A stretch of DNA of 64,000 nt. It comes from a phage. The stretch lies in the sequence record PZ171032.1; one strand, 5' to 3'. A program made the position numbers and the translations under genes. The notes beneath the pieces are model-generated. The model worked only from the letters and a program-made list of their open reading frames with translations, made no database searches and was not told the DNA's origin. Positions 1,091 to 53,110 of this stretch are shown piece by piece (position 1 is the stretch's first letter; every line of letters starts with the position of its first letter).

Positions 1091-1097
1091 ACATTCC

Positions 1098-1508: not shown

Positions 1509-1568
1509 AGTAACTCTCCGTTTTAATTTTAATAATAGTATACCTAACTGTTTTGTTAATTTCAAGTG

Positions 1569-1598
1569 TTGACACCAGGTTATTTGTGTGGCAGAATA
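1569..1598 (+). promoter_or_regulatory. candidate sigma70 promoter (TTGACA, about 17 bp, CAGAAT) upstream of the RNA ligase gene
   Basis: Consensus -35 read directly; -10 is weak. Confidence 0.3.
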
Positions 1599-1626
1599 AA
1601 GGGACAAAATGACAAATGAGGAATGT

Positions 1627-2544: not shown

Positions 2545-2589
2545 AGAAGTGGAAAGTTATTTTTAATCACTCCAGCTTAAGGGGCCTGT

Positions 2590-3198: not shown

Positions 3199-3206
3199 AG
3201 GGATGT

Positions 3207-3554
3207 ATGAAAGTTTGGATAGATGATTTGCGTAACCCTGCTGACTACGGGCAGACAGATGCAATTTGGTTTAAAACTTCACAAGAGGCTATGGAGTTTC
3301 TCAATAATCCTGCTAAAATGTATCGAAGAGTGACAGAGTGGTTCTTTGACCATGATTTGGGTGAAGCCTCTGATCAAGACGGGTATGCTGTTTTATTGCG
3401 CCTGGAAGAGCTATTTGTATTTGGTAAGCCCCCTGTAGTTGACAACGTGAAGATTTTCGTGCATACTTCTAACCCATCAGCGGCTCGTAAATTCATGCTT
3501 GCAGCTGACTCGTTTAAAAAGTTTGGAATAGAGATTAAACAAAACATCTACTGA
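3207..3554 (+). CDS. small protein with receiver (CheY-like) fold signature; function unknown
   Basis: WIDDLR ... FDHDLGE ... VHTSNP places acidic residues where a receiver domain has its DD/D/T pocket. Pattern only. Confidence 0.3.
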   Translation: MKVWIDDLRNPADYGQTDAIWFKTSQEAMEFLNNPAKMYRRVTEWFFDHDLGEASDQDGYAVLLRLEELFVFGKPPVVDNVKIFVHTSNPSAARKFMLAADSFKKFGIEIKQNIY

Positions 3555-3562
3555 GGACACTT

Positions 3563-4324: not shown

Positions 4325-4337
4325 AAGGAGACCTTTA

Positions 4338-5051
4338 ATGCTGAATACTAAATTAATTGACAACCTGGAAAAACTATCCCAACCTGAAAACTACCTTTGG
4401 TCTGCCAACTGGGTGGAAAACTGGAACCGTGTGGCAGCTAAAGTGAAAAAATCATACACACCATTCGAATTACAGCTTAGCTTCATTGAGGAAGAGTTCA
4501 ATGAAGTTTTGGAAGAGCTGGAGAAAGGTGATGGTGGAGATCACCTGCTAAAGGAGGCCTGCGATCTTCACGTTGTCACAAGTTATGCAGCTTATCTTGT
4601 TAATGACAATCACGAAAAGTGGTCAAACCTGTTTGATAATCCACGAGGTCTTAAGTTCAAGATCGGTGAGTTCTATGACACACTGATCGCTGCGAAAAAC
4701 ACATCCAAGCAAAGAGCGTCAGCTTACCGTTTAGCGGAGTTGTCAACAGCTTTGCTGTTCCAGCTTAGCGGCGATGTGTGCGGGATGATGCGTAAGGTTC
4801 TCAAATCGAATGACAGCAAGTTTGCACGGGTCAACCATCTACGGTATTCACACGGTGCCAGTGCAGATATGCCTGCTGAACAACTCATAGAGTTGGAGAT
4901 TAAAGATCTTGAGCGACGCTTTGATGGTCGATATGAAGGTTTTGTTGCTAAGGAAGAATTCTACAACGGTAATAAAGTTATCATATTCCTTGACAGTAAA
5001 GGTAAGATCATGAAGCCTTCGAGCTTCAAGGATGTAGCAGAGTATATTTAA
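4338..5051 (+). CDS. MazG-like nucleotide pyrophosphohydrolase domain protein (tentative)
   Basis: Acidic helix pattern FIEEEFNEVLEELEKGDGGDHLLKEACD resembles the EExxE...E..D metal-binding signature of all-alpha NTP-PPases. Confidence 0.35.
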   Translation: MLNTKLIDNLEKLSQPENYLWSANWVENWNRVAAKVKKSYTPFELQLSFIEEEFNEVLEELEKGDGGDHLLKEACDLHVVTSYAAYLVNDNHEKWSNLFDNPRGLKFKIGEFYDTLIAAKNTSKQRASAYRLAELSTALLFQLSGDVCGMMRKVLKSNDSKFARVNHLRYSHGASADMPAEQLIELEIKDLERRFDGRYEGFVAKEEFYNGNKVIIFLDSKGKIMKPSSFKDVAEYI

Positions 5052-5058
5052 CAACATG

Positions 5059-5085
5059 GCCGGGATTACCCGGCTTTACTTGTTG
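5059..5085 (+). terminator. rho-independent terminator candidate (GCCGGG-atta-CCCGGC + TTTACTTGTTG)
   Basis: Hairpin plus T-rich tail read directly after the stop of the preceding gene. Confidence 0.55.
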
Positions 5086-5423
5086 TGGAAAGTATGCAAG
5101 TGAGGCAGATAGTTATGTACAAGCACTCTAGAGATCTTGAAAACGATGCTGTGTTTGGGGATCAGATGAAAGAGTTGGTTAAACTTATAGGCAGGATAGA
5201 GGATAAGTTTGACACTAAGATCTACATCGACAGCAAAGTATTCAACCACAAAATATGGACAAATCTGTGTGTTGGACTACATGGAGATAAAGATGTGGTA
5301 AATTTAGTTGTAATTAAGTTCATAGTGTGGCAGAATAAAACTATAAATTATTACGATCCACACCTGCTTGTTTACCCGATAAAAGACCTATTAGATAAGG
5401 AGGACTGCAATGCCGTTATTTAA
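5085..5423 (+). CDS. hypothetical protein
   Basis: 112-aa ORF in co-directional packed array. Confidence 0.45.
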   Translation: MESMQVRQIVMYKHSRDLENDAVFGDQMKELVKLIGRIEDKFDTKIYIDSKVFNHKIWTNLCVGLHGDKDVVNLVVIKFIVWQNKTINYYDPHLLVYPIKDLLDKEDCNAVI

Positions 5424-5679
5424 TCTTGCTAAACCTGTAGAAGCACACCAGTTTGACGGAAGCTCTTCATCAGTATCTGATCTGCAACGGTGGATTGATA
5501 CGGGTGTGTTTACATCGTCACCTGTTCGGACCAGAGATCTTCGTCGCATGTGTGAGCTTGTAGAGCCGTTTGGTAACCTAGTCTTGTACCAGGGTGATTG
5601 GCTTGTTGATTTTATGGGGGACTGGTTGGTAATGAGTAAAGAAGAGATGTTTAAAATTTTTAAGGAAGAGGCCGAGTAA
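5410..5679 (+). CDS. hypothetical protein
   Basis: 89-aa ORF overlapping neighbours by a few nt (translational coupling pattern). Confidence 0.45.
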   Translation: MPLFNLAKPVEAHQFDGSSSSVSDLQRWIDTGVFTSSPVRTRDLRRMCELVEPFGNLVLYQGDWLVDFMGDWLVMSKEEMFKIFKEEAE

Positions 5680-6962
5680 TGCATCAAATCAAAACAACAC
5701 TGTACGCACTGAACAAAGATGGCAGCTACCAACAGTGGAAAGTATTCACGGATGGTGATAAGGTTATCGTAGAGTTTGGCAAGCTTGATGGTAAACTACA
5801 ATACAAAGAGACGATCTGCACACCTAAGAACGTGGGTCGCGCCAATGAAACTACAGCTGAGCAACAGGCCGAGCTGGAAGCGATCAGTAAGTGGGAAAAA
5901 CAGGTCCGACTCGGGTACGTGGAGAGTATGGAAGATTGTGAGCAAGGTGTTGATCTTTTACCCATGTTGGTGCATGACTACCTGAAGCGTGGCAAGGCAC
6001 TTAAATTACCTTGCTGGATCTTGCGTAAGTTAGATGGCCTTCGTCTGCTTGTTGTTTTCCAAAATGGTGAGCCTAAATTTATTTCCCGTGGTAATAAGTC
6101 CTACCCTATTCAAGGAAAGCTTTTAGAGCAACTTCGTTCTTTCCATTCTACCACTGGGATTAAACAACTTGATGGGGAACTATACATTCATGGTCTTCCT
6201 TTGCAGAAAATAGTGTCTCTTGCTAAACGGTGGCGCACACAGGAAGAGATTCAGGCCGAGATCGATAAAGACTATGAGGCAGATAAAAAACGCCGTCATG
6301 CAGCAATTAAGGCAGGCTTATCAACATACAAAAACTTCAACAAGGTAGATATTCCTGTCGATGTTGAGCCTGTTCGTGATGATTTGCGTTACGGTGGGTA
6401 CTGTAGCTACGATCTGGAGTATCACATTTTTGATATTCCTAGCGACAAGGTGTGGTGGGATCCAGAAACAGAGTCTGGACGCTGCAAGGATCTTATGGAT
6501 GCAGAGGATACCGTTACCACTCTGATGCTTGACCATATCAAGGTTGTTGACGCAGAGCTTGCGTACACAGTTGATCATTGCGAAGAATCTGTTGGTATAT
6601 TCATGTCCGAAGGATATGAAGGTACTATCATGCGTAATTTCTGCGGTAAATACGAGTACGGTCAGCGAACATCTGAAGCATTGAAATGGAAAAAGTTCAA
6701 CGACGCAGAGGTGAAAGTTATTGACGTTGAGAAAGATAAGAATGATGAAGGTGTTCTTATCTGTGTTGACAAGGAAGGTGTTATTGTTAAAATGAAGATG
6801 AAAGGCACGCACGAGGAGCGTAGCTATGACAGGATGCAGGAAATGATCGGCAAGTTTGTCACCTTCAAATATCAATCAAGGACAGAAGACAACAACTACC
6901 AATTCCCTGTCGGTATCTGCGTCCGAAATGTTGACCCAGACACTTGGGAGGTTCTGGAATGA
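5679..6962 (+). CDS. ATP-dependent DNA ligase
   Basis: Motif I KxDG (ILRKLDGLR), motif IV-like EGTIMR, motif V-like KWKK; size about 427 aa. Confidence 0.7.
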   Translation: MHQIKTTLYALNKDGSYQQWKVFTDGDKVIVEFGKLDGKLQYKETICTPKNVGRANETTAEQQAELEAISKWEKQVRLGYVESMEDCEQGVDLLPMLVHDYLKRGKALKLPCWILRKLDGLRLLVVFQNGEPKFISRGNKSYPIQGKLLEQLRSFHSTTGIKQLDGELYIHGLPLQKIVSLAKRWRTQEEIQAEIDKDYEADKKRRHAAIKAGLSTYKNFNKVDIPVDVEPVRDDLRYGGYCSYDLEYHIFDIPSDKVWWDPETESGRCKDLMDAEDTVTTLMLDHIKVVDAELAYTVDHCEESVGIFMSEGYEGTIMRNFCGKYEYGQRTSEALKWKKFNDAEVKVIDVEKDKNDEGVLICVDKEGVIVKMKMKGTHEERSYDRMQEMIGKFVTFKYQSRTEDNNYQFPVGICVRNVDPDTWEVLE

Positions 6963-7086
6963 TGTAGGATGGTTTAGTAGGTAACGGTAGCCAATTGAAT
7001 GATGGTTTTTCAATTGGCACCTACATAACCACACTATGCAGTGTTGTTGATCGGGTTAGTTATGAGCAAACTGGAGAGTATGAAAA

Positions 7087-7584
7087 ATGAAACTTGATAA
7101 AAATGTTCAACGAAAAGCTTTCTTGGATCTTATTGGCTGGGCAGAGGGAACAACAACCCACCCTGCCACCAAATGTGGAGGATACGATGTTGTAGCATAC
7201 GGGATGGACGGAAAACCTGAAATCTTTACAGATTTTTCTACGCACCCTTTTGCAAACGGTCGCCCTGGTAAAGTGTTTAACTCAAAAGGGCAAAGAACTA
7301 CAGCCTGCGGTAAATATCAATTTCTTGTCAAATACTGGGAACACTACAAAAAACAGCTTAAGTTGCCTGATTTTGGACCAGACAGTCAGGATAAGTGGGC
7401 GATCCAGTTGATCAGAGAACGTAAAGCACTTGAAGATATAGATAACGGTCATATTAAATCTGCTATACGTAAGACCTCAAATATTTGGGCTTCGTTCCCA
7501 TACAACCAGTACGACCAAAATCCAAAAACCATTGACAAGTTGCTTAAGAAATTTGTAGAGTTTGGAGGTGTTGTTCTGGATTAA
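7087..7584 (+). CDS. lysozyme / lytic transglycosylase of the phage lambda R type
   Basis: QRKAFLDLIGWAEGT and downstream blocks (GKYQFL, KQLKLPDF, SNIWAS) are colinear with lambda R as recalled; 165 aa. Confidence 0.85.
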   Translation: MKLDKNVQRKAFLDLIGWAEGTTTHPATKCGGYDVVAYGMDGKPEIFTDFSTHPFANGRPGKVFNSKGQRTTACGKYQFLVKYWEHYKKQLKLPDFGPDSQDKWAIQLIRERKALEDIDNGHIKSAIRKTSNIWASFPYNQYDQNPKTIDKLLKKFVEFGGVVLD

Positions 7585-7638
7585 TGATCAAAAGGTAGGC
7601 CACTCGCCTACCTTGCTACACCAGAGGTGTGTTGAGAT

Positions 7639-8400
7639 ATGACGATACATTTCTTTTTTAATGATCACTATCCTTATTGGTACAAGGATGGTGATCTAAT
7701 CTTTTGGAAACCTGGCTGCAGTAGAAATGGAAATAGGGCTGGACACTACAACAAAAAGACTGGATATTTCCAAGTGTATAATAAGCTGACAAATGTTAAA
7801 CGTGGCAGACATAGGGAAATTTTTGACATGTTTTACGGATGTGTCACAGATACTTGGCATATCGATCATATTGTCTCTAAGAAAAATTCTACTAACGGGG
7901 TGCCTGTAGACAAGATAGAAAACCTTCAAATGTTGAAGCCTTGGGATAACTACTGTAAGAGAGCCTTGGAAAATGTACAAAGCAATAATACCTCTACAGT
8001 GACTGGGGTGGTATGGCTGAAAAGAGAGGGTAAGTGGAGGGCAAGTAGAAGGATAAATAGGGTAAATGTTAGGTTGGGAGATTTTGACACTTTCGAAGAG
8101 GCTAAGTCTAGGATTGAATGGTCAATAGCTAACCCTGAAGAGGCTTTAAAGATAGTTCCAAACCCGCACAAGAATAATATCCTGCCTGGTATTGATTGGT
8201 CTAAGAAAGATACCTGTTGGAGGGCACGAGATAACAAAGGAAGAAACTTAAGGTGCTTCAACGACAGGAAGTGGCTAAATCCGTGGTGGGAGGCAGTTTG
8301 TGCAAGAAAATCTTGGGAAGTAAACTGTCTCTACGGAGGGATGTCACTAACTGAGTGGAAGTTATCCAGAGGCTATCCAAGACCTTGTGTTGAGGATTAA
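7639..8400 (+). CDS. HNH homing endonuclease with AP2 DNA-binding domain
   Basis: HIDHIVSKKNSTNG...NLQML (HNH core) followed by GVVWLKREGKWRASRRINRVNVRLGDFDTFEEA (AP2). Confidence 0.7.
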   Translation: MTIHFFFNDHYPYWYKDGDLIFWKPGCSRNGNRAGHYNKKTGYFQVYNKLTNVKRGRHREIFDMFYGCVTDTWHIDHIVSKKNSTNGVPVDKIENLQMLKPWDNYCKRALENVQSNNTSTVTGVVWLKREGKWRASRRINRVNVRLGDFDTFEEAKSRIEWSIANPEEALKIVPNPHKNNILPGIDWSKKDTCWRARDNKGRNLRCFNDRKWLNPWWEAVCARKSWEVNCLYGGMSLTEWKLSRGYPRPCVED

Positions 8401-8463
8401 TCATTGACATAACCACACGGACGTGGTATTTTTACCTCATAAAATGTTTAGGAGGGTTTAACC

Positions 8464-8670
8464 ATGAAAGATTTTCTGTTGGCAATTTTGTTCATGGCAG
8501 CATGTCTGGCCTGTGGTGTCGTGTTTGCAGGTGAAACAGCGTATCTTGTCGATGTATATCGGGACAATGGTAAACGTATTTGCCTTTATGAGACAAGCCA
8601 AGGTGAGCTCTACGAACTTGTGAAACAAGGTGAGGCAGGTTCCTGCCCTCGCACCCATTTCTTTGAATGA
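8464..8670 (+). CDS. small secreted or lipoprotein-like protein
   Basis: N-terminal signal-peptide-like segment MKDFLLAILFMAACLACG with possible lipobox; 68 aa. Preferred over the antisense ORF 8458..8658. Confidence 0.45.
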   Translation: MKDFLLAILFMAACLACGVVFAGETAYLVDVYRDNGKRICLYETSQGELYELVKQGEAGSCPRTHFFE

Positions 8671-8679
8671 GGAGGATAC

Positions 8680-9144
8680 GTGGAAGACGGACGTTTAATG
8701 AAGTCTGAACGCAGGCTTATTGTGCAACTGATCCCAGAAACAGCTTGGTATAATAACCTCCGAAACGCTGTGAAGAAGAGTGAGTGGGATAAGATCCGTA
8801 AGAAGTGCTACAGAGAGGCAAACTACACTTGCGAGGTGTGCGGCGGTAAAGGCAGCAAACATCCAGTGGAGTGTCATGAACTTTACACTTTCGAAGAGGG
8901 AGTGATCCGGCTTGTCGGACTGATAGCGTTGTGCCCAGATTGTCACACATCGGTACATCCTGGATTAGCAAATATCCGTGGAAAGTATGCTCAGGCAGTT
9001 AATCAGTTGGCTAAGGTGAATAAGATCACCAGAGGTATGGCAGAGGCGTATTACCGAGACTGCTTTGCAGAGTGGCGCGAGCTTAGTAAAGTTCCAGAAT
9101 GGAAGACTGACTTTTCGTGGATAGAGGGTTACCTTGATGGCTAA
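8680..9144 (+). CDS. zinc-binding HNH / His-Me-finger-like protein
   Basis: CEVCGG ... HPVECHE ... CPDCH spacing resembles HNH-type zinc-coordinating nucleases. Confidence 0.35.
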   Translation: MEDGRLMKSERRLIVQLIPETAWYNNLRNAVKKSEWDKIRKKCYREANYTCEVCGGKGSKHPVECHELYTFEEGVIRLVGLIALCPDCHTSVHPGLANIRGKYAQAVNQLAKVNKITRGMAEAYYRDCFAEWRELSKVPEWKTDFSWIEGYLDG

Positions 9145-9427
9145 GAGATCTGTAAAAGAGAAATTCGATAAGACAGCTTTTGTATTCGATACACCTCTGG
9201 ACGATATCATCAGAGGTATGCAAGCCTTGTATCGGAAGGCTGAATCTGAGCAGTTGTCTGAATCAGAACTTTACTGGCTTGGTTGGTGGGAGTTAAACCT
9301 GCCTAAAGCTGAAAGCTCTTGTCTGAGAACTGTTAAAACGTGCGCCCAAGAAAACGCTGCACTTGGAATCTACCACAAAAGGAAAAGATCAACAAAAAGC
9401 TCTCCAAGAAAGACTAAAAAGTCTTGA
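9134..9427 (+). CDS. hypothetical protein with basic C-terminal tail
   Basis: 97-aa ORF; C-terminus KRKRSTKSSPRKTKKS. Confidence 0.4.
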   Translation: MMAKRSVKEKFDKTAFVFDTPLDDIIRGMQALYRKAESEQLSESELYWLGWWELNLPKAESSCLRTVKTCAQENAALGIYHKRKRSTKSSPRKTKKS

Positions 9428-9453
9428 CAAAAGTGTTATTAATCTGATATTAT
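9424..9453 (+). promoter_or_regulatory. sigma70-type promoter (TTGACA-17-ATATTA/TATTAT)
   Basis: Near-consensus hexamers read directly, about 35 nt upstream of the 9487 ORF. Confidence 0.6.
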
Positions 9454-9486
9454 CGGTCAGATATCTATAAACTAGGAGAACTAGGT

Positions 9487-9795
9487 ATGCTTAAAATTTT
9501 TATTGTTGAAGATAAAGATATTGTCCAGTTGTATGCAAACGAGAATCATAAAGGTATGATTCTGAAGAAGGCAAGCAACCTTCATGAAAACACAATTCAA
9601 CCTGGCGATGTAATTAAGATCTGTGGTTATATGATACCAGACTCCTTGATGAAAATAACCCACCACTGGGGGTCTAATCCGTTCCTTTTTGAAAAGTATT
9701 GGGATGTTGAGTCACTTATTGCAGAGAGTGATGATGCATTCCATTACAGCATCCAACCATCTTGCAGAATAACTAACAGGAGGGTCTTTGAGTAG
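9487..9795 (+). CDS. hypothetical protein
   Basis: 102-aa ORF downstream of promoter. Confidence 0.45.
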   Translation: MLKIFIVEDKDIVQLYANENHKGMILKKASNLHENTIQPGDVIKICGYMIPDSLMKITHHWGSNPFLFEKYWDVESLIAESDDAFHYSIQPSCRITNRRVFE

Positions 9796-10927
9796 AGAAT
9801 ATCCACTTATTGAGTCCATAGATTGTCTGGCTGATCTTCTTGAACCTGACGCTATAGTTTATTATGACTTCGATCAGGTTGCATATCAAGCTGCAGCAAG
9901 TTGTGAAAAAAGGACAATTGAGGTAACACACAAAGCCTCCGGACGTAAGAAGATGTTTAAAACACGAACAGAGTTCTGGGGGCGTCAGAAGAACACCGTT
10001 GGTGGTTGGCTAAAAGCTGAGAATACCAACCGTGAAGCCGCATGTAAAAAGTCTGGTAAGGAGTTTATTCCGTGGACACGTGAAGATTTTGATGTCTTGG
10101 ATATCCAAACACCTGACCCTGTAGAGAACTGCTTGCACACAATAAAATGTAAGGCAAATGCAGTTCTTAACTATCTTGGTATTCCGGAAGAGCGATGTGT
10201 CGGGGTGTTGGGAGGCACAGGTAACTTCAGACTAGATCTTCCAATGCCGGAAAGATACAAAGCCAACCGTAACAATACTCTTCGACCACTGCTGCTTGGA
10301 GATGCAAGACAGTATCTCCAAAAGCAGTATAATGCTCAAGTGATCAACGGTATCGAGGCTGATGACTGGTTAGCTATCCAGCAATTTGAAGGTTGGAACC
10401 ACTACCAAAAAACAGGTAAGTTCAACAAGTTTATTATCTCTATTGATAAGGACCAAAGAACACTACCGGGGCTTGTGTTCGATCCCATGCGAAACGATAA
10501 GGGAGATTTTGTAAGGGAAACCCCTATGCTGATCGATAACGGTATGGGGAACATCTTCATGAAGCCTAATGGAGAGGTTGGTGGTTACGGAATGCTGTTC
10601 TTCGGATACCAAATGCTGTGTGGTGACTCTGCTGACAACATCAAGCCGTATCAGGGACTTATCGGTAAGGGTAAGTTCGGAGATGCCTCAGCATTCTACC
10701 TACTGTCTCAGTGCAGCACTCCAAAGGAGATGTGGATGGCTATTATTGATCAGTACAAGAAGTGGTTCCCGAAAGGTGTTGTTAAGTATACTGACTTCAA
10801 TGGTATTGATCGTAGAATTTCCGTAGGTCAATGGATGAGTATAATTTTTGACTGTTTGTATATGAAGCGAACATTCAATGATCAAACAAAACTTGTTAAC
10901 GTTCTTAGAAATGTTGGAGCAATTTGA
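9788..10927 (+). CDS. 5'-3' exonuclease / flap endonuclease (FEN, T7 gp6 / T5 D15-like)
   Basis: YKANR, GIEADD and GDSADNIKP...GKGKFG (H3TH) motifs characteristic of the 5'-nuclease family. Confidence 0.8.
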   Translation: MSREYPLIESIDCLADLLEPDAIVYYDFDQVAYQAAASCEKRTIEVTHKASGRKKMFKTRTEFWGRQKNTVGGWLKAENTNREAACKKSGKEFIPWTREDFDVLDIQTPDPVENCLHTIKCKANAVLNYLGIPEERCVGVLGGTGNFRLDLPMPERYKANRNNTLRPLLLGDARQYLQKQYNAQVINGIEADDWLAIQQFEGWNHYQKTGKFNKFIISIDKDQRTLPGLVFDPMRNDKGDFVRETPMLIDNGMGNIFMKPNGEVGGYGMLFFGYQMLCGDSADNIKPYQGLIGKGKFGDASAFYLLSQCSTPKEMWMAIIDQYKKWFPKGVVKYTDFNGIDRRISVGQWMSIIFDCLYMKRTFNDQTKLVNVLRNVGAI

Positions 10928-11259
10928 TGACTAAAAATTCTGTAGATAACGCAATTATGGAAGCTGTTTTTGAGGATGATCACACAACAGGGACACTTAA
11001 AACAAAAAATACATTCGTTGTTGCCACAGGTATGTGGCGGTTGTATGAAGATGACACCATTTCATACATCCTGTACACGGATGATTACGCAGATGACCGT
11101 GTATGGTCTGCTGTTTTAAAAGAGGATTGTGAGCTGATTGAGGGCGAGCGGTTATGCATGTTCACCAGTGTGGAAACAGATGTTAAGCTTTGCTCTCTCG
11201 TCTTGTTCAAAGATAAGGCTTACGCTCCTGATGAAGGAGAGGAGGACGAAGAAGCATGA
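10924..11259 (+). CDS. hypothetical acidic protein
   Basis: 111-aa ORF; C-terminus EGEEDEEA. Confidence 0.45.
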   Translation: MMTKNSVDNAIMEAVFEDDHTTGTLKTKNTFVVATGMWRLYEDDTISYILYTDDYADDRVWSAVLKEDCELIEGERLCMFTSVETDVKLCSLVLFKDKAYAPDEGEEDEEA

Positions 11260-11885
11260 GAGAGCGTCTATTATCCATAGACCAGTCGTTGACGCACACA
11301 GCTTGCGTTGTATGGGACGATGGAAAGCCTGTTCATAAGGTTGTGTTACGAACTCAAAGCTCATCTGCAAAAGAGAAGAAACCAGGGACGGTTTCTTTTG
11401 CAACAGCTGCTGAGCGTATTGACTGGATCTGCAAACAGGTCAGATATTATATCCACACGCACGGCGTTGACACCGTAGTTATGGAAGGGCTTTCCTTTGG
11501 ATCACGCGGGGATGCCACACGTGAACTGGCTGGGTTGTTTTACGGTCTTGAAGTTATGCTTTGGGATGCCTTAGCCGATTGTGAAAATGACGGCCTGTTT
11601 AAGGTCCACACAGTGACACCAACAACTGCCAAAAAGTTTGCTCGTAGTCATCTTCCTGAGGAACTTGCTTTCGAGGAGAAGAAAAAGCTTGACAAAAAGA
11701 CAGGTAAAGAGCATACTGTGAAGAAACCTGTTACGATGGATAAAAAGTTGATGGTTAAGGCCTGCGAAGTATCTGAACCTGGGTTCCTAGATGGGATCAA
11801 TTTGGTACAAGGTAAGGCCGATCTTGCAGATGCTTATTGGATAGGCAGGGCGCATCTGGAGGGATTATCGCAAAGCGTAAAATAA
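11256..11885 (+). CDS. RuvC-like Holliday junction resolvase (tentative)
   Basis: LLSIDQSL (N-terminal Asp), VVMEG, VHTVTPTTAKK and KADLADAYWIGRA blocks parallel RuvC catalytic motifs. Confidence 0.55.
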   Translation: MRERLLSIDQSLTHTACVVWDDGKPVHKVVLRTQSSSAKEKKPGTVSFATAAERIDWICKQVRYYIHTHGVDTVVMEGLSFGSRGDATRELAGLFYGLEVMLWDALADCENDGLFKVHTVTPTTAKKFARSHLPEELAFEEKKKLDKKTGKEHTVKKPVTMDKKLMVKACEVSEPGFLDGINLVQGKADLADAYWIGRAHLEGLSQSVK

Positions 11886-12442
11886 GAAAGAAAGCTGTCA
11901 AAGCTCCCGTTCATAACGGGTGGTTAAAAGATTCTAAGGACATAGCCAACTTTCGAAAAGAATTGTCAGAGGAGCAGGATGGTCTTGATCCAATCTTGTG
12001 CGAGCCACTTCGTAAGCCTTGTTTAGATCATGATCATCTGACTGGTCGTTGCAGGGGTGTTTTGTCTCAATGCACTAATACCTTTGAGGGGTATGTGCTT
12101 AAATACTGGATGAAATACTGTAACGAGTATACAGATTGCAGTTTATCAGAGGCGTTGCGCCGGATGGCTGACTATTTGGAGAAAGACTACAGCGACTTCC
12201 CGCTCCACAAAAACTACAGAGATGATATGACAAAGTTCTTGAGGAGATGCTCTAAAGCTACGATCATTGCACGAGCAGAATCAGATCTCAATCTTGTCAT
12301 TAATCCGGAGTGCACCAAGCATGAGGCTATTGAGTTCTACATGCAGGAGTTTATAAAGAAAACTGAGGAGAGAGATTTCTATGGGGATGAAAAAGGTATT
12401 CAATCCTTGCGACTCAGTCCTGATCAGGATGAAATACCGTAA
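11837..12442 (+). CDS. endonuclease VII-type (His-Me finger) nuclease
   Basis: PCLDHDHLTGRCRGVLSQCTNTFEG matches the T4 endonuclease VII signature LDHDH..G...RG.LC..CN..EG. Start uncertain (49-nt overlap with upstream gene). Confidence 0.7.
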   Translation: MDRQGASGGIIAKRKIRKKAVKAPVHNGWLKDSKDIANFRKELSEEQDGLDPILCEPLRKPCLDHDHLTGRCRGVLSQCTNTFEGYVLKYWMKYCNEYTDCSLSEALRRMADYLEKDYSDFPLHKNYRDDMTKFLRRCSKATIIARAESDLNLVINPECTKHEAIEFYMQEFIKKTEERDFYGDEKGIQSLRLSPDQDEIP

Positions 12443-41147: not shown

Positions 41148-42489
41148 TAAGTTCTTCTCTTTTCTTTTACCGAGTAATTCGGGTTTTCTGTTCTCTTCGG
41201 TTTGAAGGGGTATGGAGATACACCTGAGTGAACAGGGTGAACAACCGAACATTCGGCTATGGCATTAGCATGGCGAAGCGAACGGGTGACGAAAGAGGGG
41301 CCGGAGGACACCAGTCACTGCCATATGATATATGGGTGATAACCTGAAGAGTCTGAATAAGTGTTTAAGTACCAGTCAGAGGAAAAGGTGAATGGTAGCC
41401 GAAGGGGGAGGGGGGGTTTCTTGTATCTTTAATTTGTATATTATGTATACACTTGTAAACCAATTTCATCTGAATCTGTTTACCATACAAAGTGGATTGA
41501 GACAAATATTACCTATTAAACTTGAATTATTTATAGAAAATACCACAACACACCTTAAGTCTTTGATTTTACACATAAATCCTACAGATATTCAACCTCC
41601 ATATTTAACATACTTGTAACATATCCTATACCACACCTGCCTGATCAATTTCCCCAACTACATCCTCTATATTTTACCTGCCTGTACTACCCCTGCCCCG
41701 CCGGGAGTCCCGTCATATCTGGCTTTCCAGCAAATATCCCACCAACAAATATCATTGCCTGAAGAGGGTTTCATCCCATAATACATGCCTTATCTGAAGA
41801 GCGCTTCATACACCACGTAAATTTTTTAATTGACCCCTCCCCGCCGCCGGAGAGGTTGGCTTTTCCCACACAGACCTGAAGAGTCAGCCAGAAATATCTG
41901 AATAGGCCCAATTCTACCACGATTTTGACCTGACCTACAGGGAGGCCCGAAGGGTCTAGCTTTCAGCTAGAGTCCTTGCAGGACCTACAGGAGTGCTGCC
42001 AGGCGGACGGAATGGGAATACTTCTCATTTTTATAATAATTCTCAAATATCGAGGCAGTGAGGCAAATTAATAGGTGAGGCCGTTCACACAGTGGCACAA
42101 CATTTGCAACCTATCTTGTGTGGGGGAATGATAATACCTATCATTGTGAGAACCATTATCATTACGGGCAATTTAACATAATACCCATTATGCGCACCAC
42201 TGGCGATACATACAGGGATTGATAACATGAGTTACAGTTTACGCATATAACAATTATATTTCTTATCATTTGTGTGGGATATAGTTAGCAGCCAATAGAT
42301 TAGATATTGACCTGCATACTTCCAACCGTCTAGACGTCTAAACGCCCACACACCAAGGATTATACATACACTCCTGAATGTAAACAGGGCCGCAAAAATG
42401 CTACCATACAAGCTTGTAAATTTTTCATGCAGCACTTGACAAAGAGGAGAAAAACTTGTCTGACATAATGTGACCTAACTGACACAACA

Positions 42490-42590
42490 TGACACTTTTA
42501 CACACCTATTAGTTTACACACTGGATTGTTTACATTCCTGATTGTTCACATGCTAACCATTTACATGATTGACTGTTTACACACCGATAA
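42490..42590. repeat. iteron-like array: six copies of a TTTACA(C/T)-containing motif at roughly 15-bp spacing
   Basis: Read directly: cTTTTACACAcc, aGTTTACACAct, tGTTTACATtc, tGTTCACATgc, cATTTACATga, tGTTTACACAcc. Confidence 0.6.
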
Positions 42591-42594
42591 TCAG

Positions 42595-42843
42595 CCATGC
42601 CATTCGTTTGCATGACAATAATTATACATGACAATAATCGCACTGATTATAATTAGCATGACATAATATAAAAGCAGGGCAACTATTAGCAGATCTATAG
42701 TTGCCCTGCTTGTTATGTCATGATTAACTAAATACAAGGCAACTATGATCTGATTAATAGTTTGCAGACAAACTATCACGGGGGTGATGGTTACTGCTTT
42801 TATATTATGTCGCGACTCCGTCGCGCCATGCCATTCGTTTGCA
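42595..42843. repeat. direct repeat pair CCATGCCATTCGTTTGCAT (about 230 bp apart) flanking a perfect 14-bp-stem palindrome (42673-42710) and CATGACAATAAT repeats
   Basis: Read directly. Confidence 0.6.
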
Positions 42844-43454
42844 TAGTTGCCTTATTGTTACAGGTAAAATAATTACATTATTAATTATTTCTTATCTTTC
42901 TCTTAGTCATCTAATGATTCCAGTCAGTATAGTAATGTACAGTAAACATTAGACGACTAAATATTTCTATGCTTATGATAACTTGCCGTGACAATTTCGG
43001 ACTGTTTACGAAAAATGTTGACACCTGGGCGGGTTTATGTTATGCAGTTTACACGAATAATTATTTCATACAGGTATTGACTATTCCGTTATTCTGTGGT
43101 TGGAATAAATACTTTGCAGGCTATAGAATGGTGTGCGTACGTGAATTCTAAGATCTGGCGGCTATAGTTACACCCGATTTTTCACGTAGAACACGCTTTT
43201 TGGTTTGTGTAAGTGTATGACTTATAAAGATTTTTAGTTGTTGACAGGATATTGAAGATGTGCATCAGGTTAAATTTTGTGCAATAGCTGCAGTACGTGC
43301 ATTTTTGGAAGGAAAAACGTGTAAAAATGGTCCTGCTACCACATAATGAAAGATTATGCAATAGCTATTTTATATGTATATTTGTACAGTGTGTGGGATT
43401 GATGGCTCGTCAATTATTCCACTTGCTGGGTGGGGCCGTTTGTGGTAGGAGGAG

Positions 43455-49476: not shown

Positions 49477-49708
49477 CCTCCTTTGGGAACTTGAACTCTG
49501 GCATAGCCATATACGCTACAACAGGGTTGTGATCAAAGTAGAACTGACCGTTAATTATCCCGGTTTTACTCACATAGTTACCAGATCCTGCAAGAGCAAC
49601 CTCGCAAGCTCCGAAATCTACATTGCCATCCTCATCAGCCATGGCTACGATATACTTTCCTAGAGGCATGTTTTTAACGCCGTCTACAAATGTCCACCCT
49701 TTGTTCAT
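49463..49708 (-). CDS. hypothetical protein
   Basis: 81-aa ORF. Confidence 0.45.
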   Translation of the reverse strand: MNKGWTFVDGVKNMPLGKYIVAMADEDGNVDFGACEVALAGSGNYVSKTGIINGQFYFDHNPVVAYMAMPEFKFPKEGADV

Positions 49709-49728
49709 ACTTTATCTCCTGCACTTTC

Positions 49729-50061
49729 TTAAGGTAACCAGTAAACAATCTCGCCTTTCAGCTTCATGTCGTTTCCAACATAAATTTCCCAGCCATCCAT
49801 CTTAGCAACTGTAGGCCCAAAGTCATCCGCACCCCTTACCTCTTTCCAGGCTCCGTAGTCAGGTTGCCAGATATAGAATCCACCTTCTTTGTCCCATGCT
49901 CCGTACACTACGTTTAACAGGTTTCCCATTGCAACAATGGTGGGCCGTGGGAATAATACATCTACAGATGCGCCACAATTTCGGGTATCTTTTAAGTTGC
50001 AATCCCAAAAGATGTCTGCCAGTGTGGCGGCGATAGCTTTACGTCTTTCCAATGTTACCAT
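49729..50061 (-). CDS. hypothetical protein
   Basis: 110-aa ORF. Confidence 0.45.
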   Translation of the reverse strand: MVTLERRKAIAATLADIFWDCNLKDTRNCGASVDVLFPRPTIVAMGNLLNVVYGAWDKEGGFYIWQPDYGAWKEVRGADDFGPTVAKMDGWEIYVGNDMKLKGEIVYWLP

Positions 50062-50071
50062 GGCACGATAC

Positions 50072-50263
50072 TCACTTGTTGTTAATAAGTTCTAAAACTT
50101 TCTGTCTTACTTTGTCAAGGTCTGTTGATTCAAAAACTGTGCGATATCCCCAACTTTGCCCATAGGAGTGACTGCAATCTCCGTAGCACCATTGCTCAAT
50201 TTGATAGTATTCAAGGAAGGGGTGCTGTCTAACTATGATGCCATCCCGGTTAAAAATTACCAT
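50072..50263 (-). CDS. hypothetical protein
   Basis: 63-aa ORF. Confidence 0.4.
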   Translation of the reverse strand: MVIFNRDGIIVRQHPFLEYYQIEQWCYGDCSHSYGQSWGYRTVFESTDLDKVRQKVLELINNK

Positions 50264-50326
50264 AATACGTCGCTCTCTGTTAGTCTGTGCGTATATTATA
50301 CACTGTAGTTTTCAGATGTCAATCTT

Positions 50327-50521
50327 TTACAGGTTACTCCAGTATACTCGGCATTTACATTTCGGGCAATGAGGCTCTTTTATGTAATAACCATCAGTCT
50401 TTGGAACACTTTTTGGTGCAGTTTTAAGATTGTACCGAGTAAAACACCGGAAGCAGGTTACCTCTCCAACCTGTTGATCGTTTATCCACTCGCCAGAGTA
50501 AAGCTCTCTCTTGTTTCTCAT
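50327..50521 (-). CDS. small zinc-ribbon protein
   Basis: CFRCF...CPKCKC; start set at MRNKREL behind GGGAGAG (the track ORF starts at an upstream GTG). Confidence 0.45.
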   Translation of the reverse strand: MRNKRELYSGEWINDQQVGEVTCFRCFTRYNLKTAPKSVPKTDGYYIKEPHCPKCKCRVYWSNL

Positions 50522-50547
50522 AATTCTCTCCCAAATCCTCTGCAATC

Positions 50548-50718
50548 TTATACCAAAATCTCCAGCCAGAAAGCACACGGGAACACTTTGATGATTGAAT
50601 CTTTACCTGGTTCAGCAGTTCTTTTTCCGTAGGGTAGGTAGAAATACCCTCCTGCAGATTCGAACACAGCCCCTTCGGTTGTATCTATCACAGCCAGAAT
50701 TAAGATTTTAGTCTCCAT
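50548..50718 (-). CDS. hypothetical protein, 56 aa
   Basis: GAGAGGGAG SD; METKILILAVIDTTEGAVFESAGGYFYLPYGKRTAEPGKDSIIKVFPCAFWLEILV; below track cutoff. Confidence 0.35.
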   Translation of the reverse strand: METKILILAVIDTTEGAVFESAGGYFYLPYGKRTAEPGKDSIIKVFPCAFWLEILV

Positions 50719-50771
50719 AGTGCTCCCTCTCTCAATCGTTGTGGTGACTATACCATCTCAAAAACCCGCTG

Positions 50772-51230
50772 TCAACACTTTTTGTACTCCACCACGATAA
50801 TATTCATATCAAAAGTGGCAAGGTTAATAACGTCCTCTACGTGCTCCCACTTCAAACCGCCTATGCCGCACCCGATCTTAGGGATGTAGAATGGTAAAGT
50901 CGATCCACTGAATACCTCATTGACTAGCTCAAAGCCTTTCAGGATTGAGAAATATTCAGCATTAGGTCCTGGGTAGAACTGAGTATACAGATTGATTCCG
51001 TAGACAATACCTCTCGGAGATAAGTGCTCCCATCGGGAGAACGCACCCAGTTTACTTAGGCAACCGTGTCTGGTCTCTTTGTCAGCTGCCAATGCTTGAG
51101 GGAACTCACGGGCAATCTGTTTTGCTATCCCCTTGCCCATTGTGTGGAAGCAGTTACAACCGTGGATCAGGTGACCAGCACCGCTCTTAAAAAGGGAGAT
51201 TAAATCTCCCTCTACAGTATCAATAATCAC
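50772..51230 (-). CDS. macro domain protein (ADP-ribose binding / ADP-ribosyl hydrolase-like)
   Basis: VIIDTVEGDL...GAGHLIHGCNCFHTMGKGIAKQIAREFP and later IGCGIGGLKWEHV match macro-domain glycine-rich loops (compare recalled DarG-type HGCNAQGVMGSGIA). Start set at GTG behind GAGGAG, overlapping the upstream stop. Confidence 0.6.
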   Translation of the reverse strand: MIIDTVEGDLISLFKSGAGHLIHGCNCFHTMGKGIAKQIAREFPQALAADKETRHGCLSKLGAFSRWEHLSPRGIVYGINLYTQFYPGPNAEYFSILKGFELVNEVFSGSTLPFYIPKIGCGIGGLKWEHVEDVINLATFDMNIIVVEYKKC

Positions 51231-51645
51231 GGTATGCCAGCTCCTCTTCCGCAATTTCAAAAAACTCAGTCCAGCACTGTGGCATATTGGAGTTACCGAA
51301 GTGGCTTTCATAGTAAAGGTTCTCACCACTTGGAAGATAGAAATCTGTTACCTCATAGAATCCACAATCGTCGCACTCGCCTTCTTCAAACTTAGCCTCA
51401 ACCTTAATACCGAGGAAGGTGAAAAGTTTATGGATATCTTCAGTTTCGAACTCCCAGTGAATGTTGTTTTCCGCATCGGTGTAGAACTGGATCAGCAGAC
51501 CATTGTCCAGTTTACCAAAATACTCTGTGAAGTAACTTCCTTCCCAGAAATCTTTATGACAAATAATATCCATGCGTTTGCCCATAATAATGGTGTGAGC
51601 GTTTTGGGCATCGTCACGAATCAGTTTTGGCATTTCATAGATCAT
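51220..51645 (-). CDS. hypothetical acidic protein
   Basis: 141-aa ORF. Confidence 0.45.
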   Translation of the reverse strand: MIYEMPKLIRDDAQNAHTIIMGKRMDIICHKDFWEGSYFTEYFGKLDNGLLIQFYTDAENNIHWEFETEDIHKLFTFLGIKVEAKFEEGECDDCGFYEVTDFYLPSGENLYYESHFGNSNMPQCWTEFFEIAEEELAYRDY

Positions 51646-51713
51646 CTTAGTTCTCCGGGTTCAACAGGTGGTGGTGCTACAGGAAGATCATAAAACATGG
51701 CTATCACAGTCTC

Positions 51714-51911
51714 TTACACAGGAATTGCTTCAAACAGGCCGTTATCTATACCATCCTTCAGATAAAGATTATACTCTATGTCGGTATCTGTATAAAGGGC
51801 AGCATCCAGCATTCTATCTGTGAGTCCATCCATTGGGTGGAGAAACCACCACCCACGCCAGTCAAAGTAACAACCTGGTGCATCTTCTCTTACACGGATT
51901 CGATAAATCAT
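51714..51911 (-). CDS. hypothetical protein
   Basis: 65-aa ORF. Confidence 0.4.
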   Translation of the reverse strand: MIYRIRVREDAPGCYFDWRGWWFLHPMDGLTDRMLDAALYTDTDIEYNLYLKDGIDNGLFEAIPV

Positions 51912-52007
51912 GGGCAGTGGCCTCCTGTTAGTTATACATCCCAGTTTTCTTCGTTCATCACGTCCTCCCGTTTTATGAAGTTATAATTGCACACCTTTCA
52001 ACCTGTG

Positions 52008-52424
52008 TCAACAGAAAACTTCAACAAATTCTTCCACAGTTTTAATGTCGTGGGAAAAAGGTTTACGGCTATAACGGGCAATAGCACTATCAACCACCGC
52101 CCGGTACTCAAGATCTTCAGAGTATTTCATGAAGCATTGCAGTGTTTCTGGACAGATAGCCAGATAGCTCCACCACCCTTCATCAGATTGATAGTCAAAG
52201 CCCATGCTCTCCAACCATGAAGCATATACTCCAGCACCCTCAAGCCAGTGAGTATTTTCATCCAGAAACTTGTTAACAGACATGTGAGCTTCTAAGCACT
52301 TGTCCAGCTCTTTTCCGTTAACCAGCCACGCACTGACCGTGGCGCATCCAAGGTCTACAGATTGAGTTGACAGGTTGTATTGGTCATAGTTCTCAGGTTT
52401 AACAATGATATCTTCTAATGTCAT
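52008..52424 (-). CDS. hypothetical protein
   Basis: 138-aa ORF. Confidence 0.45.
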   Translation of the reverse strand: MTLEDIIVKPENYDQYNLSTQSVDLGCATVSAWLVNGKELDKCLEAHMSVNKFLDENTHWLEGAGVYASWLESMGFDYQSDEGWWSYLAICPETLQCFMKYSEDLEYRAVVDSAIARYSRKPFSHDIKTVEEFVEVFC

Positions 52425-52486
52425 TTTTCAGATCTCCTTATACAAAAATGCCCCACCCTTTCGGGCAGGGCTATGTCAGTTAGGTG

Positions 52487-53110
52487 CTAAAAGTATTCAT
52501 AGAGGTATCCATCGGGAGCTGGAATTTTTTCATGAATGTAGTAATCAACACATATTCCGGTTTCTCTTCTACAAGAGTTGTGGGATACCCATTCTTTAAG
52601 AATGTTGCCATTCATGTCCAGCCTCCTTACATTTTTACACCGTCTACCGCTGGTGCTTCTATGCAACAGAATATCCTCCGTCTGCTTGTCTTTATTTTCT
52701 CCCCAGGTCGTTAAACGGATATTATCAAAAGAGTACCCTTTGAAATCATCTATCCTGTCACAAGAAGGCTTTTTCCTTTTGTCGTATCCGCTGGCTACCC
52801 ACTGATCATACAACTCTTTGTAACCGTTTAGGTATAGCCACTCCTTAAACTCTTTTTTGGTGTAAGTCGGAGGAGGGTGACCTCTTTGCTTGCTGTTGCA
52901 CTTTTGAGACTTGTACAGCACGCGTATTACACCTTTTTCTGAAGAGTCGTGGGAAAACTGGTCAGCCTCTCTGCTGGCCTTCTTACAGCACTCTTTGCAC
53001 TTATTAAGATGACCGTCAGCCATCTTTGGATGTTTGTAAAACTCGGAGAGGTTTTTCACCTCTCCGCACTTGATGCACCTCTTACAATGCGTAGATTCTA
53101 CTTTTACCAT
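52487..53110 (-). CDS. zinc-finger protein, possibly a free-standing homing-endonuclease-like gene
   Basis: N-terminal CKRCIKCG...CKECC zinc finger with F.K motif and basic C-terminal region; no catalytic motif recognised. Confidence 0.3.

What the first reader, a model, noticed from the sequence alone, without database searches (positions are those of the whole stretch)
50772..51230. Macro-domain protein in the leftward block, with a Sir2-like gene elsewhere in the window: possible NAD/ADP-ribose counter-defence functions
The macro domain (GAGHLIHGCNCFHTMGKGIAKQI...IGCGIGG) resembles ADP-ribosyl hydrolases that reverse ADP-ribosylation. Together with the Sir2-like gene at 3563..4324 it suggests the phage manipulates NAD+-derived signalling or undoes host ADP-ribosyl toxins such as DarT-like enzymes.
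Basis: inference. Interest (0 to 1): 0.5.

Follow-up and report, generated by a model that had tools for sequence, protein, structure and literature searches.

The report
Phage macrodomain, likely anti-DarT2 DNA repair
This rV5-like coliphage gene encodes a small macrodomain enzyme homologous to phage T4 AdfM (Tk.4), so it most likely strips host-added ADP-ribose off phage DNA to escape the DarTG2 defence; the distant Sir2 gene belongs to a separate RNA-repair module.

Summary
Window 50772..51230 (-) is a 152-aa GTG-started gene, annotated at the same coordinates in public Vequintavirus (rV5-like) genomes. It folds as a macrodomain (AF2 pLDDT 96.4) and its closest solved folds are TARG1, Poa1p and DarG. 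It belongs to the phage Tk.4 family: 39% identity over the full length to T4 Tk.4 (E 4e-40), and 69% to the RB49 gene that sits at the tk.4 position. T4 Tk.4 was named AdfM in a 2025 preprint because its deletion makes T4 sensitive to DarTG2.

One difference matters: the whole family has an invariant Gln where DarG, TARG1 and PhiKZ AdfM have the catalytic Lys.

The proposed partnership with Sir2 is not supported.
- Sir2 lies 46 kb away on the other strand.
- It sits inside an RNA-ligase/kinase/phosphoesterase/cREC/MazG module, already described for phage V5 as a predicted RNA-repair system.
- T4 has the macrodomain without Sir2, and T5 has Sir2 without the macrodomain.

Verdict: an ordinary, correctly spotted, untested member of a recently characterised counter-defence family.

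The parts
50772..51230 (-). Macrodomain gene (152 aa, GTG start), a member of the phage Tk.4/AdfM family
   Evidence: ORF and start. Same interval annotated in public relatives. Pfam Macro, PHROG 335 and PADLOC DarG. AF2 pLDDT 96.4 and Foldseek to TARG1/Poa1p/DarG. 39% identity and E 4e-40 to T4 Tk.4. dN/dS 0.12 between Vequintavirus alleles.
51220..51645 (-). Upstream 141-aa gene of unknown function (PHROG 8157). Its stop overlaps the macrodomain GTG start by 11 nt, so the two are probably co-transcribed and translationally coupled.
   Evidence: Sequence. PHROG 8157 E 3.2e-82, unknown function. No Pfam, NCBIfam or PADLOC match.
51983..52011 (-). Sigma-70-like promoter (TTGACA-17-AATTAT, with TG) upstream of the three-gene run 51911..50772. 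A second promoter-like site lies at 51796..51768.
   Evidence: Consensus scan: 17 sites found against 7.6 expected. These are pattern matches only.
52450..52471 (-). Intrinsic-terminator-like hairpin that closes the upstream unit
   Evidence: 9-bp stem with 7 GC pairs, followed by a T run.
50747..50775 (-). Strong sigma-70-like promoter (TTGACA-17-TATAGT, with TG) overlapping the macrodomain stop codon. It starts the next small-gene unit.
   Evidence: 11 of 12 matches.
3563..4324 (+). Sir2-like gene named in the finding. It is a CobB/Sirt5-type sirtuin with the catalytic His and the GAGxS motif but without the Zn-ribbon cysteines. It belongs to a separate module, not to the macrodomain function.
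   Evidence: Pfam SIR2 E 4.7e-27. PHROG 2162 E 1e-108. CobB 1S5P E 1.6e-21 with alignment. No PADLOC hit.
138..5051 (.). RNA-repair-type neighbourhood around Sir2: HTH regulator 138..488(-), metallophosphoesterase 536..1195(-), AAA_33 P-loop kinase 1098..1664(-), T4 Rnl1-type RNA ligase 1609..2544(+), an inserted 202-aa ORF 2590..3198(+), cREC 3207..3554(+), Sir2, and a MazG-like protein 4338..5051(+)
   Evidence: Pfam. PHROGs. Annotation of phage DrSchubert (polynucleotide kinase, RNA ligase, sirtuin). Described for phage V5 by Iyer et al. 2022, PMC9503650.

Best explanation
The gene encodes a stand-alone, early-expressed macrodomain ADP-ribosyl glycohydrolase of the phage Tk.4/AdfM family.

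Proposed mechanism:
1. On hosts carrying DarTG2, the DarT2 toxin uses NAD+ to ADP-ribosylate thymidines in single-stranded phage DNA, which blocks replication.
2. The phage macrodomain binds the ADP-ribose in its Gly-rich cleft (GKGIA and GCGIGG loops, Asn26).
3. It hydrolyses the C1''-N bond, releasing ADP-ribose and restoring thymidine, so replication continues.

It acts as an orphan, macro-only analogue of the DarG2 antitoxin. It has no toxin-binding domain.

Shown here: the gene, the fold, the conserved ligand-binding motifs, purifying selection, and homology to T4 Tk.4.
Inferred: enzymatic activity, DNA-thymidine substrate, and early expression.

The catalytic chemistry must differ from DarG and TARG1, because the family has Gln84 where they have the catalytic Lys.
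For: Fold and motifs:
- AF2 pLDDT 96.4. Best PDB folds are TARG1, Poa1p and DarG.
- Invariant G24, N26, G34, A36, N80, Q84, P117 and G120 across 54 homologues.

Family:
- PHROG 335 E 4.8e-59.
- Best models in defence and antitoxin libraries are DarG: NCBIfam NF048014 E 1.6e-12 and PADLOC DarG E 1.1e-13, a stronger match than T4 Tk.4 itself at 1.3e-9.

Homology to T4:
- 59/153 identical over the full length to T4 Tk.4, E 4e-40.
- The RB49 homologue is 69% identical to the window protein, 44% to T4 Tk.4, and lies just upstream of tk as tk.4 does in T4.
- There is only one such gene in the window.

Function of relatives:
- tk.4 was the single HIDEN-SEQ hit on a DarTG2 host, and a clean knockout sensitised T4 to DarTG2 (10.1101/2025.11.20.689424).
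- A separate phage macrodomain, PhiKZ gp104, removes DarT2-made ADP-ribose from DNA in vitro (PMC13309987).
- T5 has no Tk.4-type macrodomain and is DarTG2-sensitive.

The gene is under selection and mobile:
- dN/dS is 0.12 between two Vequintavirus alleles.
- The gene is a local divergence island, 66-86% nucleotide identity inside 96-99% flanks. This fits an exchanged accessory gene.

Expression: it lies in a block dense in sigma-70-like promoters.
Against: - No experiment exists on any rV5-like homologue. The Bas54 (Vequintavirinae) transposon library was not challenged with DarTG2.
- Identity to T4 AdfM is only 39%, and the T4 evidence is genetic, from a preprint, with no biochemistry.
- The catalytic Lys of DarG, TARG1 and PhiKZ AdfM is replaced by an invariant Gln. 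BT1257 and SCO6735 show the same replacement.
- By profile score the family is about equally distant from DarG (4.8e-17), BT1257 (7e-17), SCO6735 (8.3e-16), TARG1 (2.6e-15) and Poa1p (3.1e-14). Sequence alone therefore does not pick DNA-thymidine as the substrate.
- Iyer et al. 2022 argued that phage macrodomains mainly target soluble ADP-ribose derivatives.
Confidence: 0.6

Rival explanations
1. Small-molecule clean-up enzyme. The macrodomain dephosphorylates or deacylates soluble ADP-ribose derivatives (ADPr-1''-phosphate, O-acyl-ADPr). These would include by-products of the phage's own sirtuin/cREC RNA-repair module, if that sirtuin acts like KptA and makes ADPr>P, which cREC then opens. 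This is the only reading in which macro and Sir2 really work together.
For: - Public annotation as 'Poa1p_like' or 'phosphatase'.
- Poa1p is among the best structural matches, E 1e-9.
- The window protein keeps His23 and has Thr30 at the positions of two of the three residues mutated in the deposited Poa1p structures (H23A, S30A; alignment, PDB titles). The residue mapping is my inference.
- The same genome carries the predicted NAD-consuming RNA-repair module, which has no macrodomain of its own.
Against: - The genes are 46.4 kb apart, on opposite strands, in different blocks.
- T4 and its relatives carry the family without Sir2 or cREC, and T5 carries the Sir2 without it.
- The T4 homologue's knockout phenotype is specific to DarTG2.
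- Poa1p Phe152 is not conserved (Gly here).
- The sirtuin's KptA-like activity is itself only a prediction.
Confidence: 0.15
2. Eraser of ADP-ribose on proteins or RNA. It would reverse host ART toxins that modify proteins or RNA, or tune the phage's own ADP-ribosylation, as TARG1 and SCO6735 do on Glu-linked protein ADP-ribose.
For: - TARG1 is the top Foldseek match (E 6.4e-10, TMt 0.85).
- The invariant Gln at the catalytic-Lys position is shared with BT1257 and with SCO6735. From my own knowledge, SCO6735 is a protein-ADPr hydrolase.
Against: - No ART gene or defined target was found near the gene.
- No phage member of the family has been shown to act on protein or RNA.
- The T4 genetics point to DarT2, which modifies DNA.
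Confidence: 0.12
3. Degrader or sponge of ADP-ribose-derived immune signals (Thoeris gcADPR or His-ADPR and similar), blunting NAD-derived signalling.
For: [quoted passage not shown]
- Macrodomains can bind His-ADPR (ThsA).
Against: - No experimental precedent was found for a phage macrodomain of this family doing so.
- No Thoeris-related context.
- The closest characterised homologue has a different, specific phenotype.
Confidence: 0.07

Closest known systems
Phage T4 Tk.4 = AdfM (anti-DarT factor Macrodomain), HIDEN-SEQ preprint 10.1101/2025.11.20.689424
   Same: Stand-alone macrodomain of about 150 aa. 39% identity end to end (E 4e-40). Same signature motifs (HGCNCFHTMG, NLYTQF.PGPN, P.IG.GIG), including Gln at the DarG-Lys position. 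Same PHROG 335.
   Different: Different phage subfamily and locus: there are no tk or vs neighbours, and a PHROG 8157 gene overlaps the start instead. GCGIGG in place of the GAGIGK loop. No phenotype has been measured.
DarG2 antitoxin macrodomain (M. tuberculosis 5M3I, T. aquaticus 5M31/5M3E; NCBIfam NF048014)
   Same: Same macro clade. It is the best PDB sequence match (4.8e-17 with the family profile). Asn of the N-C motif and both Gly-rich loops are conserved. The presumed reaction is the same: ADPr-thymidine hydrolysis.
   Different: No C-terminal DarT-binding domain (152 aa against a profile of about 338). Score 47 bits against a curated cutoff of 250. Catalytic Lys replaced by Gln84. No adjacent darT.
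PhiKZ gp104 AdfM (chimallivirus DarG2-like antitoxin, PMC13309987)
   Same: A phage-encoded stand-alone macrodomain that counters DarTG2. The conserved catalytic-site Asn is shared (N23 there, N26 here).
   Different: Only 21% identical. It keeps the DarG 'FPTK' lysine and is imported into a phage nucleus. It was acquired independently and belongs to a different sub-clade, despite the identical name.
Human TARG1/OARD1, yeast Poa1p, S. coelicolor SCO6735, B. thetaiotaomicron BT1257
   Same: Same macrodomain sub-fold: Foldseek E 6e-10 to 1e-6, TM 0.7-0.85. His23 is shared with Poa1p, BT1257 and SCO6735. Gln84 is shared with BT1257 and SCO6735.
   Different: 21-28% identity. Their substrates are protein Glu-ADPr, OAADPr or ADPr-1''-phosphate. 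The TARG1 Lys/Asp dyad is absent.
Phage V5-type sirtuin RNA-repair neighbourhood (Iyer, Burroughs, Anantharaman, Aravind 2022, PMC9503650), for the Sir2 gene
   Same: The same gene set is found here: Rnl1-type ligase, cREC, P-loop kinase, MazG, calcineurin-like phosphoesterase and sirtuin.
   Different: In this window an extra 202-aa ORF (2590..3198) is inserted between the ligase and cREC. It is absent in phage DrSchubert.

Membership tests
Macro domain superfamily (PF01661) | Profile match above the curated threshold | tested here: met
   27.5 bits against a cutoff of 22, E 3.2e-6. Only profile positions 1-32 aligned.
Macro domain superfamily (PF01661) | Three-layer alpha/beta/alpha macro fold | tested here: met
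   AF2 pLDDT 96.4, pTM 0.91. Foldseek probability 1.00 to TARG1, Poa1p, DarG and viral macrodomains.
Macro domain superfamily (PF01661) | Gly-rich ADP-ribose/phosphate-binding loops and the conserved Asn | tested here: met
   GKGIA (G32, G34, A36) and GCGIGG (G120, G122, G125), with N26 invariant in 54 homologues.
Phage Tk.4/AdfM (T4-type) family, PHROG 335 | Full-length similarity to T4 Tk.4 and the family profile | tested here: met
   39% identity, E 4e-40 over 152 of 155 residues. PHROG 335 E 4.8e-59. BFVD match to 'tk.4 [Acinetobacter phage 133]', TMq 0.88.
Phage Tk.4/AdfM (T4-type) family, PHROG 335 | Family signature HGCNCFHTMG ... NLYTQ ... P.IG.GIG | tested here: met
   Alignments A1 and A2.
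Phage Tk.4/AdfM (T4-type) family, PHROG 335 | Position between vs and tk | tested here: not met
   tblastn found no vs or tk homologue in the window. The RB49 homologue (69% identical) does lie upstream of tk.
Phage Tk.4/AdfM (T4-type) family, PHROG 335 | Required for growth on DarTG2 hosts | not testable with these tools
   Shown only for T4.
DarG2 antitoxin (NCBIfam NF048014 equivalog) | Score above the equivalog cutoff | tested here: not met
   47.4 bits against 250. The match covers profile positions 3-139 of 338 only.
DarG2 antitoxin (NCBIfam NF048014 equivalog) | C-terminal DarT-binding domain | tested here: not met
   The protein ends at residue 152. The overlapping upstream 141-aa protein matches no DarG model either.
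DarG2 antitoxin (NCBIfam NF048014 equivalog) | Catalytic lysine after the conserved Thr (FPTK) | tested here: not met
   Gln84, invariant in the family.
DarG2 antitoxin (NCBIfam NF048014 equivalog) | Adjacent darT toxin gene | tested here: not met
   The neighbours are small phage ORFs with no ART-like match.
Poa1p-type ADPr-1''-phosphate phosphatase | Residues probed in the Poa1p structures (H23, S30, F152) | tested here: inconclusive
   His23 is kept, Ser is replaced by Thr30, and Phe by Gly (alignment; PDB titles). The Poa1p paper was not in the library. Activity is not testable here.
Sirtuin (PF02146), for gene 3563..4324 | Profile match, GAGxSxxSGIPxFR NAD loop, NxD motif, catalytic His | tested here: met
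   E 4.7e-27. The alignment to CobB 1S5P shows GAGLSAESGIPTFR, TTNVDDL and HVHG.
Sirtuin (PF02146), for gene 3563..4324 | Four-Cys zinc ribbon | tested here: not met
   There are no cysteines in the segment aligned to the CobB Cys pairs.
Defence-type SIR2 NADases (ThsA, DSR, SIR2-HerA; PADLOC) | Match to a PADLOC SIR2 model | tested here: not met
   No PADLOC family at E <= 0.01.

The most novel reading that the evidence does not exclude
The Tk.4-type phage macrodomains, this one included, form a mechanistically distinct Gln-type clade with no catalytic Lys. Their primary substrate would be a soluble ADP-ribose derivative rather than ADPr-thymidine DNA. In rV5-like phages this derivative would be the ADPr-phosphate by-product of the sirtuin/cREC RNA-repair pathway. 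The anti-DarT2 effect would then be either a second activity or the result of a new catalytic solution for DNA de-ADP-ribosylation.
Probability: 0.15. Interest if true: 0.55.

Novelty: new member of a known kind. Interest (0 to 1): 0.3.

Why it matters
If the homology-based call holds, rV5-like phages carry a ready-made DarTG2 countermeasure. These phages are widely used in E. coli phage cocktails, so this would help explain and predict their host range on DarTG-bearing strains. It would also extend the 'orphan antitoxin' counter-defence theme (AdfN against DarTG1, AdfM against DarTG2) from T-even phages to Vequintavirinae. The invariant Gln in place of the DarG/TARG1 lysine is a concrete question for enzymologists. 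Separating Sir2 from the macrodomain prevents a spurious 'NAD counter-defence pair' annotation.

Tried and rejected
- Longer 185-aa ORF from GTG 51329. Rejected: homologues and public annotations start at 51230.
- Upstream 141-aa partner as a split DarG C-terminal (DarT-binding) domain. It has no NCBIfam, PADLOC or Pfam match.
- NAD+ reconstitution (NARP-type) or NADAR (AdfN) genes in the window. None are annotated in JES2013 across the window span. None were found among 20 ORFs scanned with Pfam. This scan was not exhaustive.
- Sir2 as a defence-like NADase. It has no PADLOC match and is CobB/Sirt5-like.
- Macro and Sir2 co-occurrence. Rejected by record counts and by the T5 whole-genome check.
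- Using sequence distance to choose between DarG, TARG1, Poa1p and SCO6735 substrates. The scores are nearly equal, so this is uninformative.
- The Poa1p structure paper was not in the library.

Full report
**Where the window comes from.** The region 49500..53000 is 98.3% identical to Escherichia phage JES2013. It matches 120 phage records, nearly all Vequintavirus (rV5-like). Window 1..12000 behaves the same way.

**The observation.** The minus strand carries an ORF ending at 50772. The mechanical ORF starts at GTG 51329. However, homologues from T4, RB49 and metagenomes all begin at the position of the GTG at 51230 (MIIDTVEGDL...). The 459-nt interval 50772..51230 is also what JES2013 annotates ('phosphatase', ORF194), and rV5_ev168 annotates the corresponding 459-nt gene ('T4-like protein ... 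with Macro domain, Poa1p_like family'). This GTG overlaps by 11 nt the stop of the upstream 141-aa gene 51220..51645 (PHROG 8157, unknown function), which suggests co-transcription and translational coupling.

**Is it a macrodomain?** Yes.
- Pfam Macro is above threshold: 27.5 bits against 22, E 3.2e-6.
- PHROG 335 gives E 4.8e-59.
- NCBIfam's only hit is the DarG antitoxin model, E 1.6e-12, over its macro part only and far below the equivalog cutoff.
- PADLOC's only hit is DarG, E 1.1e-13.
- An AlphaFold2 model built on 54 homologues has pLDDT 96.4 and pTM 0.91.
- Its best PDB neighbours are TARG1, Poa1p, and T. aquaticus and M. tuberculosis DarG, followed by BT1257 and SCO6735. Viral macrodomains (coronavirus, alphavirus) follow with weaker E-values.
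- A profile of the family matches Mtb DarG (4.8e-17), BT1257 (7e-17), SCO6735 (8.3e-16), TARG1 (2.6e-15) and Poa1p (3.1e-14) about equally well.

The protein therefore sits in the TARG1/DarG/Poa1p branch of macrodomains. Sequence distance does not single out one substrate.

**Which family?** tblastn finds homologues in 2783 phage records. In T-even phages the hit lies next to vs (valyl-tRNA synthetase modifier), which is the tk.4 position. Direct comparison with T4 Tk.4 gives 59/153 identities over the full length, E 4e-40. The RB49 (Krischvirus) homologue is 69% identical to the window protein and 44% to T4 Tk.4. It lies immediately upstream of tk, as tk.4 does in T4. The window has a single member of the family (E 3e-65; the next best is 0.72). 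BFVD also returns 'tk.4 [Acinetobacter phage 133]' among the best structural matches. The window gene is thus a homologue of T4 tk.4 in a different genomic setting.

**What is known about that family.**
- A November 2025 preprint (HIDEN-SEQ, 10.1101/2025.11.20.689424) reports that tk.4 was the single significant hit when a T4 transposon library infected a DarTG2 host. A clean knockout sensitised T4 to DarTG2. The authors named the gene adfM, anti-DarT factor Macrodomain. No biochemistry was shown.
- Independently, PhiKZ gp104 was also named AdfM. It removes DarT2-made ADP-ribose from a DNA oligonucleotide and neutralises DarT2 toxicity (PMC13309987).
- The Bas54 (Vequintavirinae) library of the preprint was not challenged with DarTG2, so nothing has been measured for rV5-like phages.
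- T-even phages also carry the NADAR protein AdfN against DarTG1. Three other Vequintavirinae (Bas60-62) carry a NADAR with that activity (PMC11825919).

**A difference that matters.** In alignments with DarG, PhiKZ gp104 and TARG1, the catalytic lysine (FPTK / ITKK) is replaced in the window protein, in T4 Tk.4 and in all 54 family members by an invariant Gln (NLYTQ). BT1257 and SCO6735 have Gln at the same place. The T4-type and PhiKZ-type 'AdfM' proteins are only about 21% identical and belong to different sub-clades. The family also shares His23 with Poa1p, BT1257 and SCO6735. It has Thr30 where Poa1p has the Ser that was mutated in a deposited structure (the residue mapping is my inference). 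If the family does hydrolyse ADPr-thymidine, it does so with chemistry that differs from DarG.

**Selection and mobility.** I compared the window with another Vequintavirus, ECO111 5-P. The flanks are 96-99% identical, but identity falls to 66-86% exactly across the macrodomain gene. The two alleles are 80% identical in protein with dN/dS 0.12. The gene is therefore functional, and its alleles are exchanged among phages. The 69% identity to RB49 points the same way.

**Expression context.** The gene lies in the leftward block of small genes between the DNA polymerase region and an ORF-poor zone. The 5-kb surroundings hold 17 sigma-70-like sites against 7.6 expected. These include a site upstream of the three-gene run ending in the macrodomain, and a near-consensus promoter overlapping its stop codon. 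A terminator-like hairpin lies at 52471..52450. This fits early, host-RNAP-dependent expression, but rests on pattern matches only.

**The Sir2 gene.** 3563..4324 (+) is a genuine sirtuin: Pfam E 4.7e-27, PHROG 2162 E 1e-108.
- Its closest solved relatives are E. coli CobB (1.6e-21) and Sirt5.
- It keeps the NAD loop, the NxD motif and the catalytic His, but has no Zn-ribbon cysteines.
- It matches no defence-type SIR2 model.
- Its neighbours are an HTH regulator, a calcineurin-like phosphoesterase, an AAA_33 P-loop kinase (annotated polynucleotide kinase in phage DrSchubert), a T4 Rnl1-type RNA ligase, a cREC protein and a MazG-like protein.

Iyer et al. 2022 described exactly this neighbourhood for 'Escherichia phage V5'. 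They predicted that the sirtuin acts like KptA in RNA repair and stressed that it is not coupled to an adjacent Macro gene (PMC9503650).

Sir2 is 46.4 kb from the macrodomain gene and on the other strand. Across phages the two are separable. There are 2783 macro-positive against 1021 Sir2-positive records, so at least about 1760 macro-positive records lack Sir2. T5 has a 57.6%-identical Sir2 but no Tk.4-type macrodomain in its whole genome (best E 0.018). T5 is also the DarTG2-sensitive control phage.

**Conclusion on mechanism.** The best explanation (about 0.6) is an orphan, macro-only, DarG-like eraser that removes DarT2-made ADP-ribose from phage DNA.

The main rival (about 0.15) is a soluble-ADPr clean-up role. 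It could serve the sirtuin/cREC pathway and is the only scenario that really links the two genes. It is weakened by the distance between the genes, their separable distribution across phages, and the T4 phenotype. Protein or RNA de-ADP-ribosylation (about 0.12) and degradation of ADPr-derived signals (about 0.07) cannot be excluded from sequence.

**Novelty.** The gene is already annotated as a macrodomain in public records, and its family has a recently assigned function. What is new is its assignment to the T4-type AdfM family for rV5-like phages, the Gln-for-Lys point, and the allele mosaicism. It is a new, untested member of a known kind, and interest is modest.

Noticed in passing
window 2590..3198 (+) and 52487..53110 (-): Two probable homing-endonuclease insertions. 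A 202-aa ORF lies between the RNA ligase and cREC and is absent from phage DrSchubert; it has no Pfam hit. The 'endonuclease VII'/HNH gene about 1.3 kb upstream of the macrodomain gene is absent from phage ECO111 5-P, where the alignment shows a gap at about 52490..53110.
   Followed up: partly
window ~41600..43100: ORF-poor zone where the rightward and leftward gene blocks meet. It has clustered direct and inverted repeats, for example an exact 20-nt direct repeat at 42594 and 42825, and an 18-nt perfect inverted repeat at 42660 and 42794. ARAGORN finds no tRNA gene anywhere in the window. The HIDEN-SEQ preprint reports that a ~2-kb intergenic region separating oppositely transcribed genes in the related phage Bas54 tolerated no transposon insertions. 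It may be the same locus, possibly an origin or regulatory region.
   Followed up: no
window 51220..51645 (-): A 141-aa protein (PHROG 8157) with no detectable family. Its stop overlaps the macrodomain start by 11 nt. It stays 98-99% identical between phages whose macrodomain alleles differ by 20%. It may be a functional partner, or merely a neighbour.
   Followed up: partly
public records MG0656xx matched by window 1..12000 and 49500..53000: About 16-20 GenBank records named 'Campylobacter phage' with host C. jejuni are 95-98% identical to this rV5-like coliphage sequence. This suggests mislabelled or contaminant genomes.
   Followed up: no
window 3563..4324 (+): The phage sirtuin has lost all four Zn-ribbon cysteines but keeps the catalytic core. 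Close homologues (46-58% identical) occur in T5-like, phi92-like and FelixO1-like phages.
   Followed up: partly
BFVD hit A0A481YV05 (not in the window): The best viral structural match of the macrodomain model is the macro part of a 302-aa Marseillevirus 'SNF2 subfamily protein' (39% identity, TMq 0.93). This is closer than most phage homologues.
   Followed up: no
window 50327..50578 (-): A small protein two genes downstream of the macrodomain carries a Phage_zn_bind_2 zinc-binding domain (PF23903, E 1.6e-22). It sits behind a perfect-consensus sigma-70-like promoter at 50322..50295.
   Followed up: no
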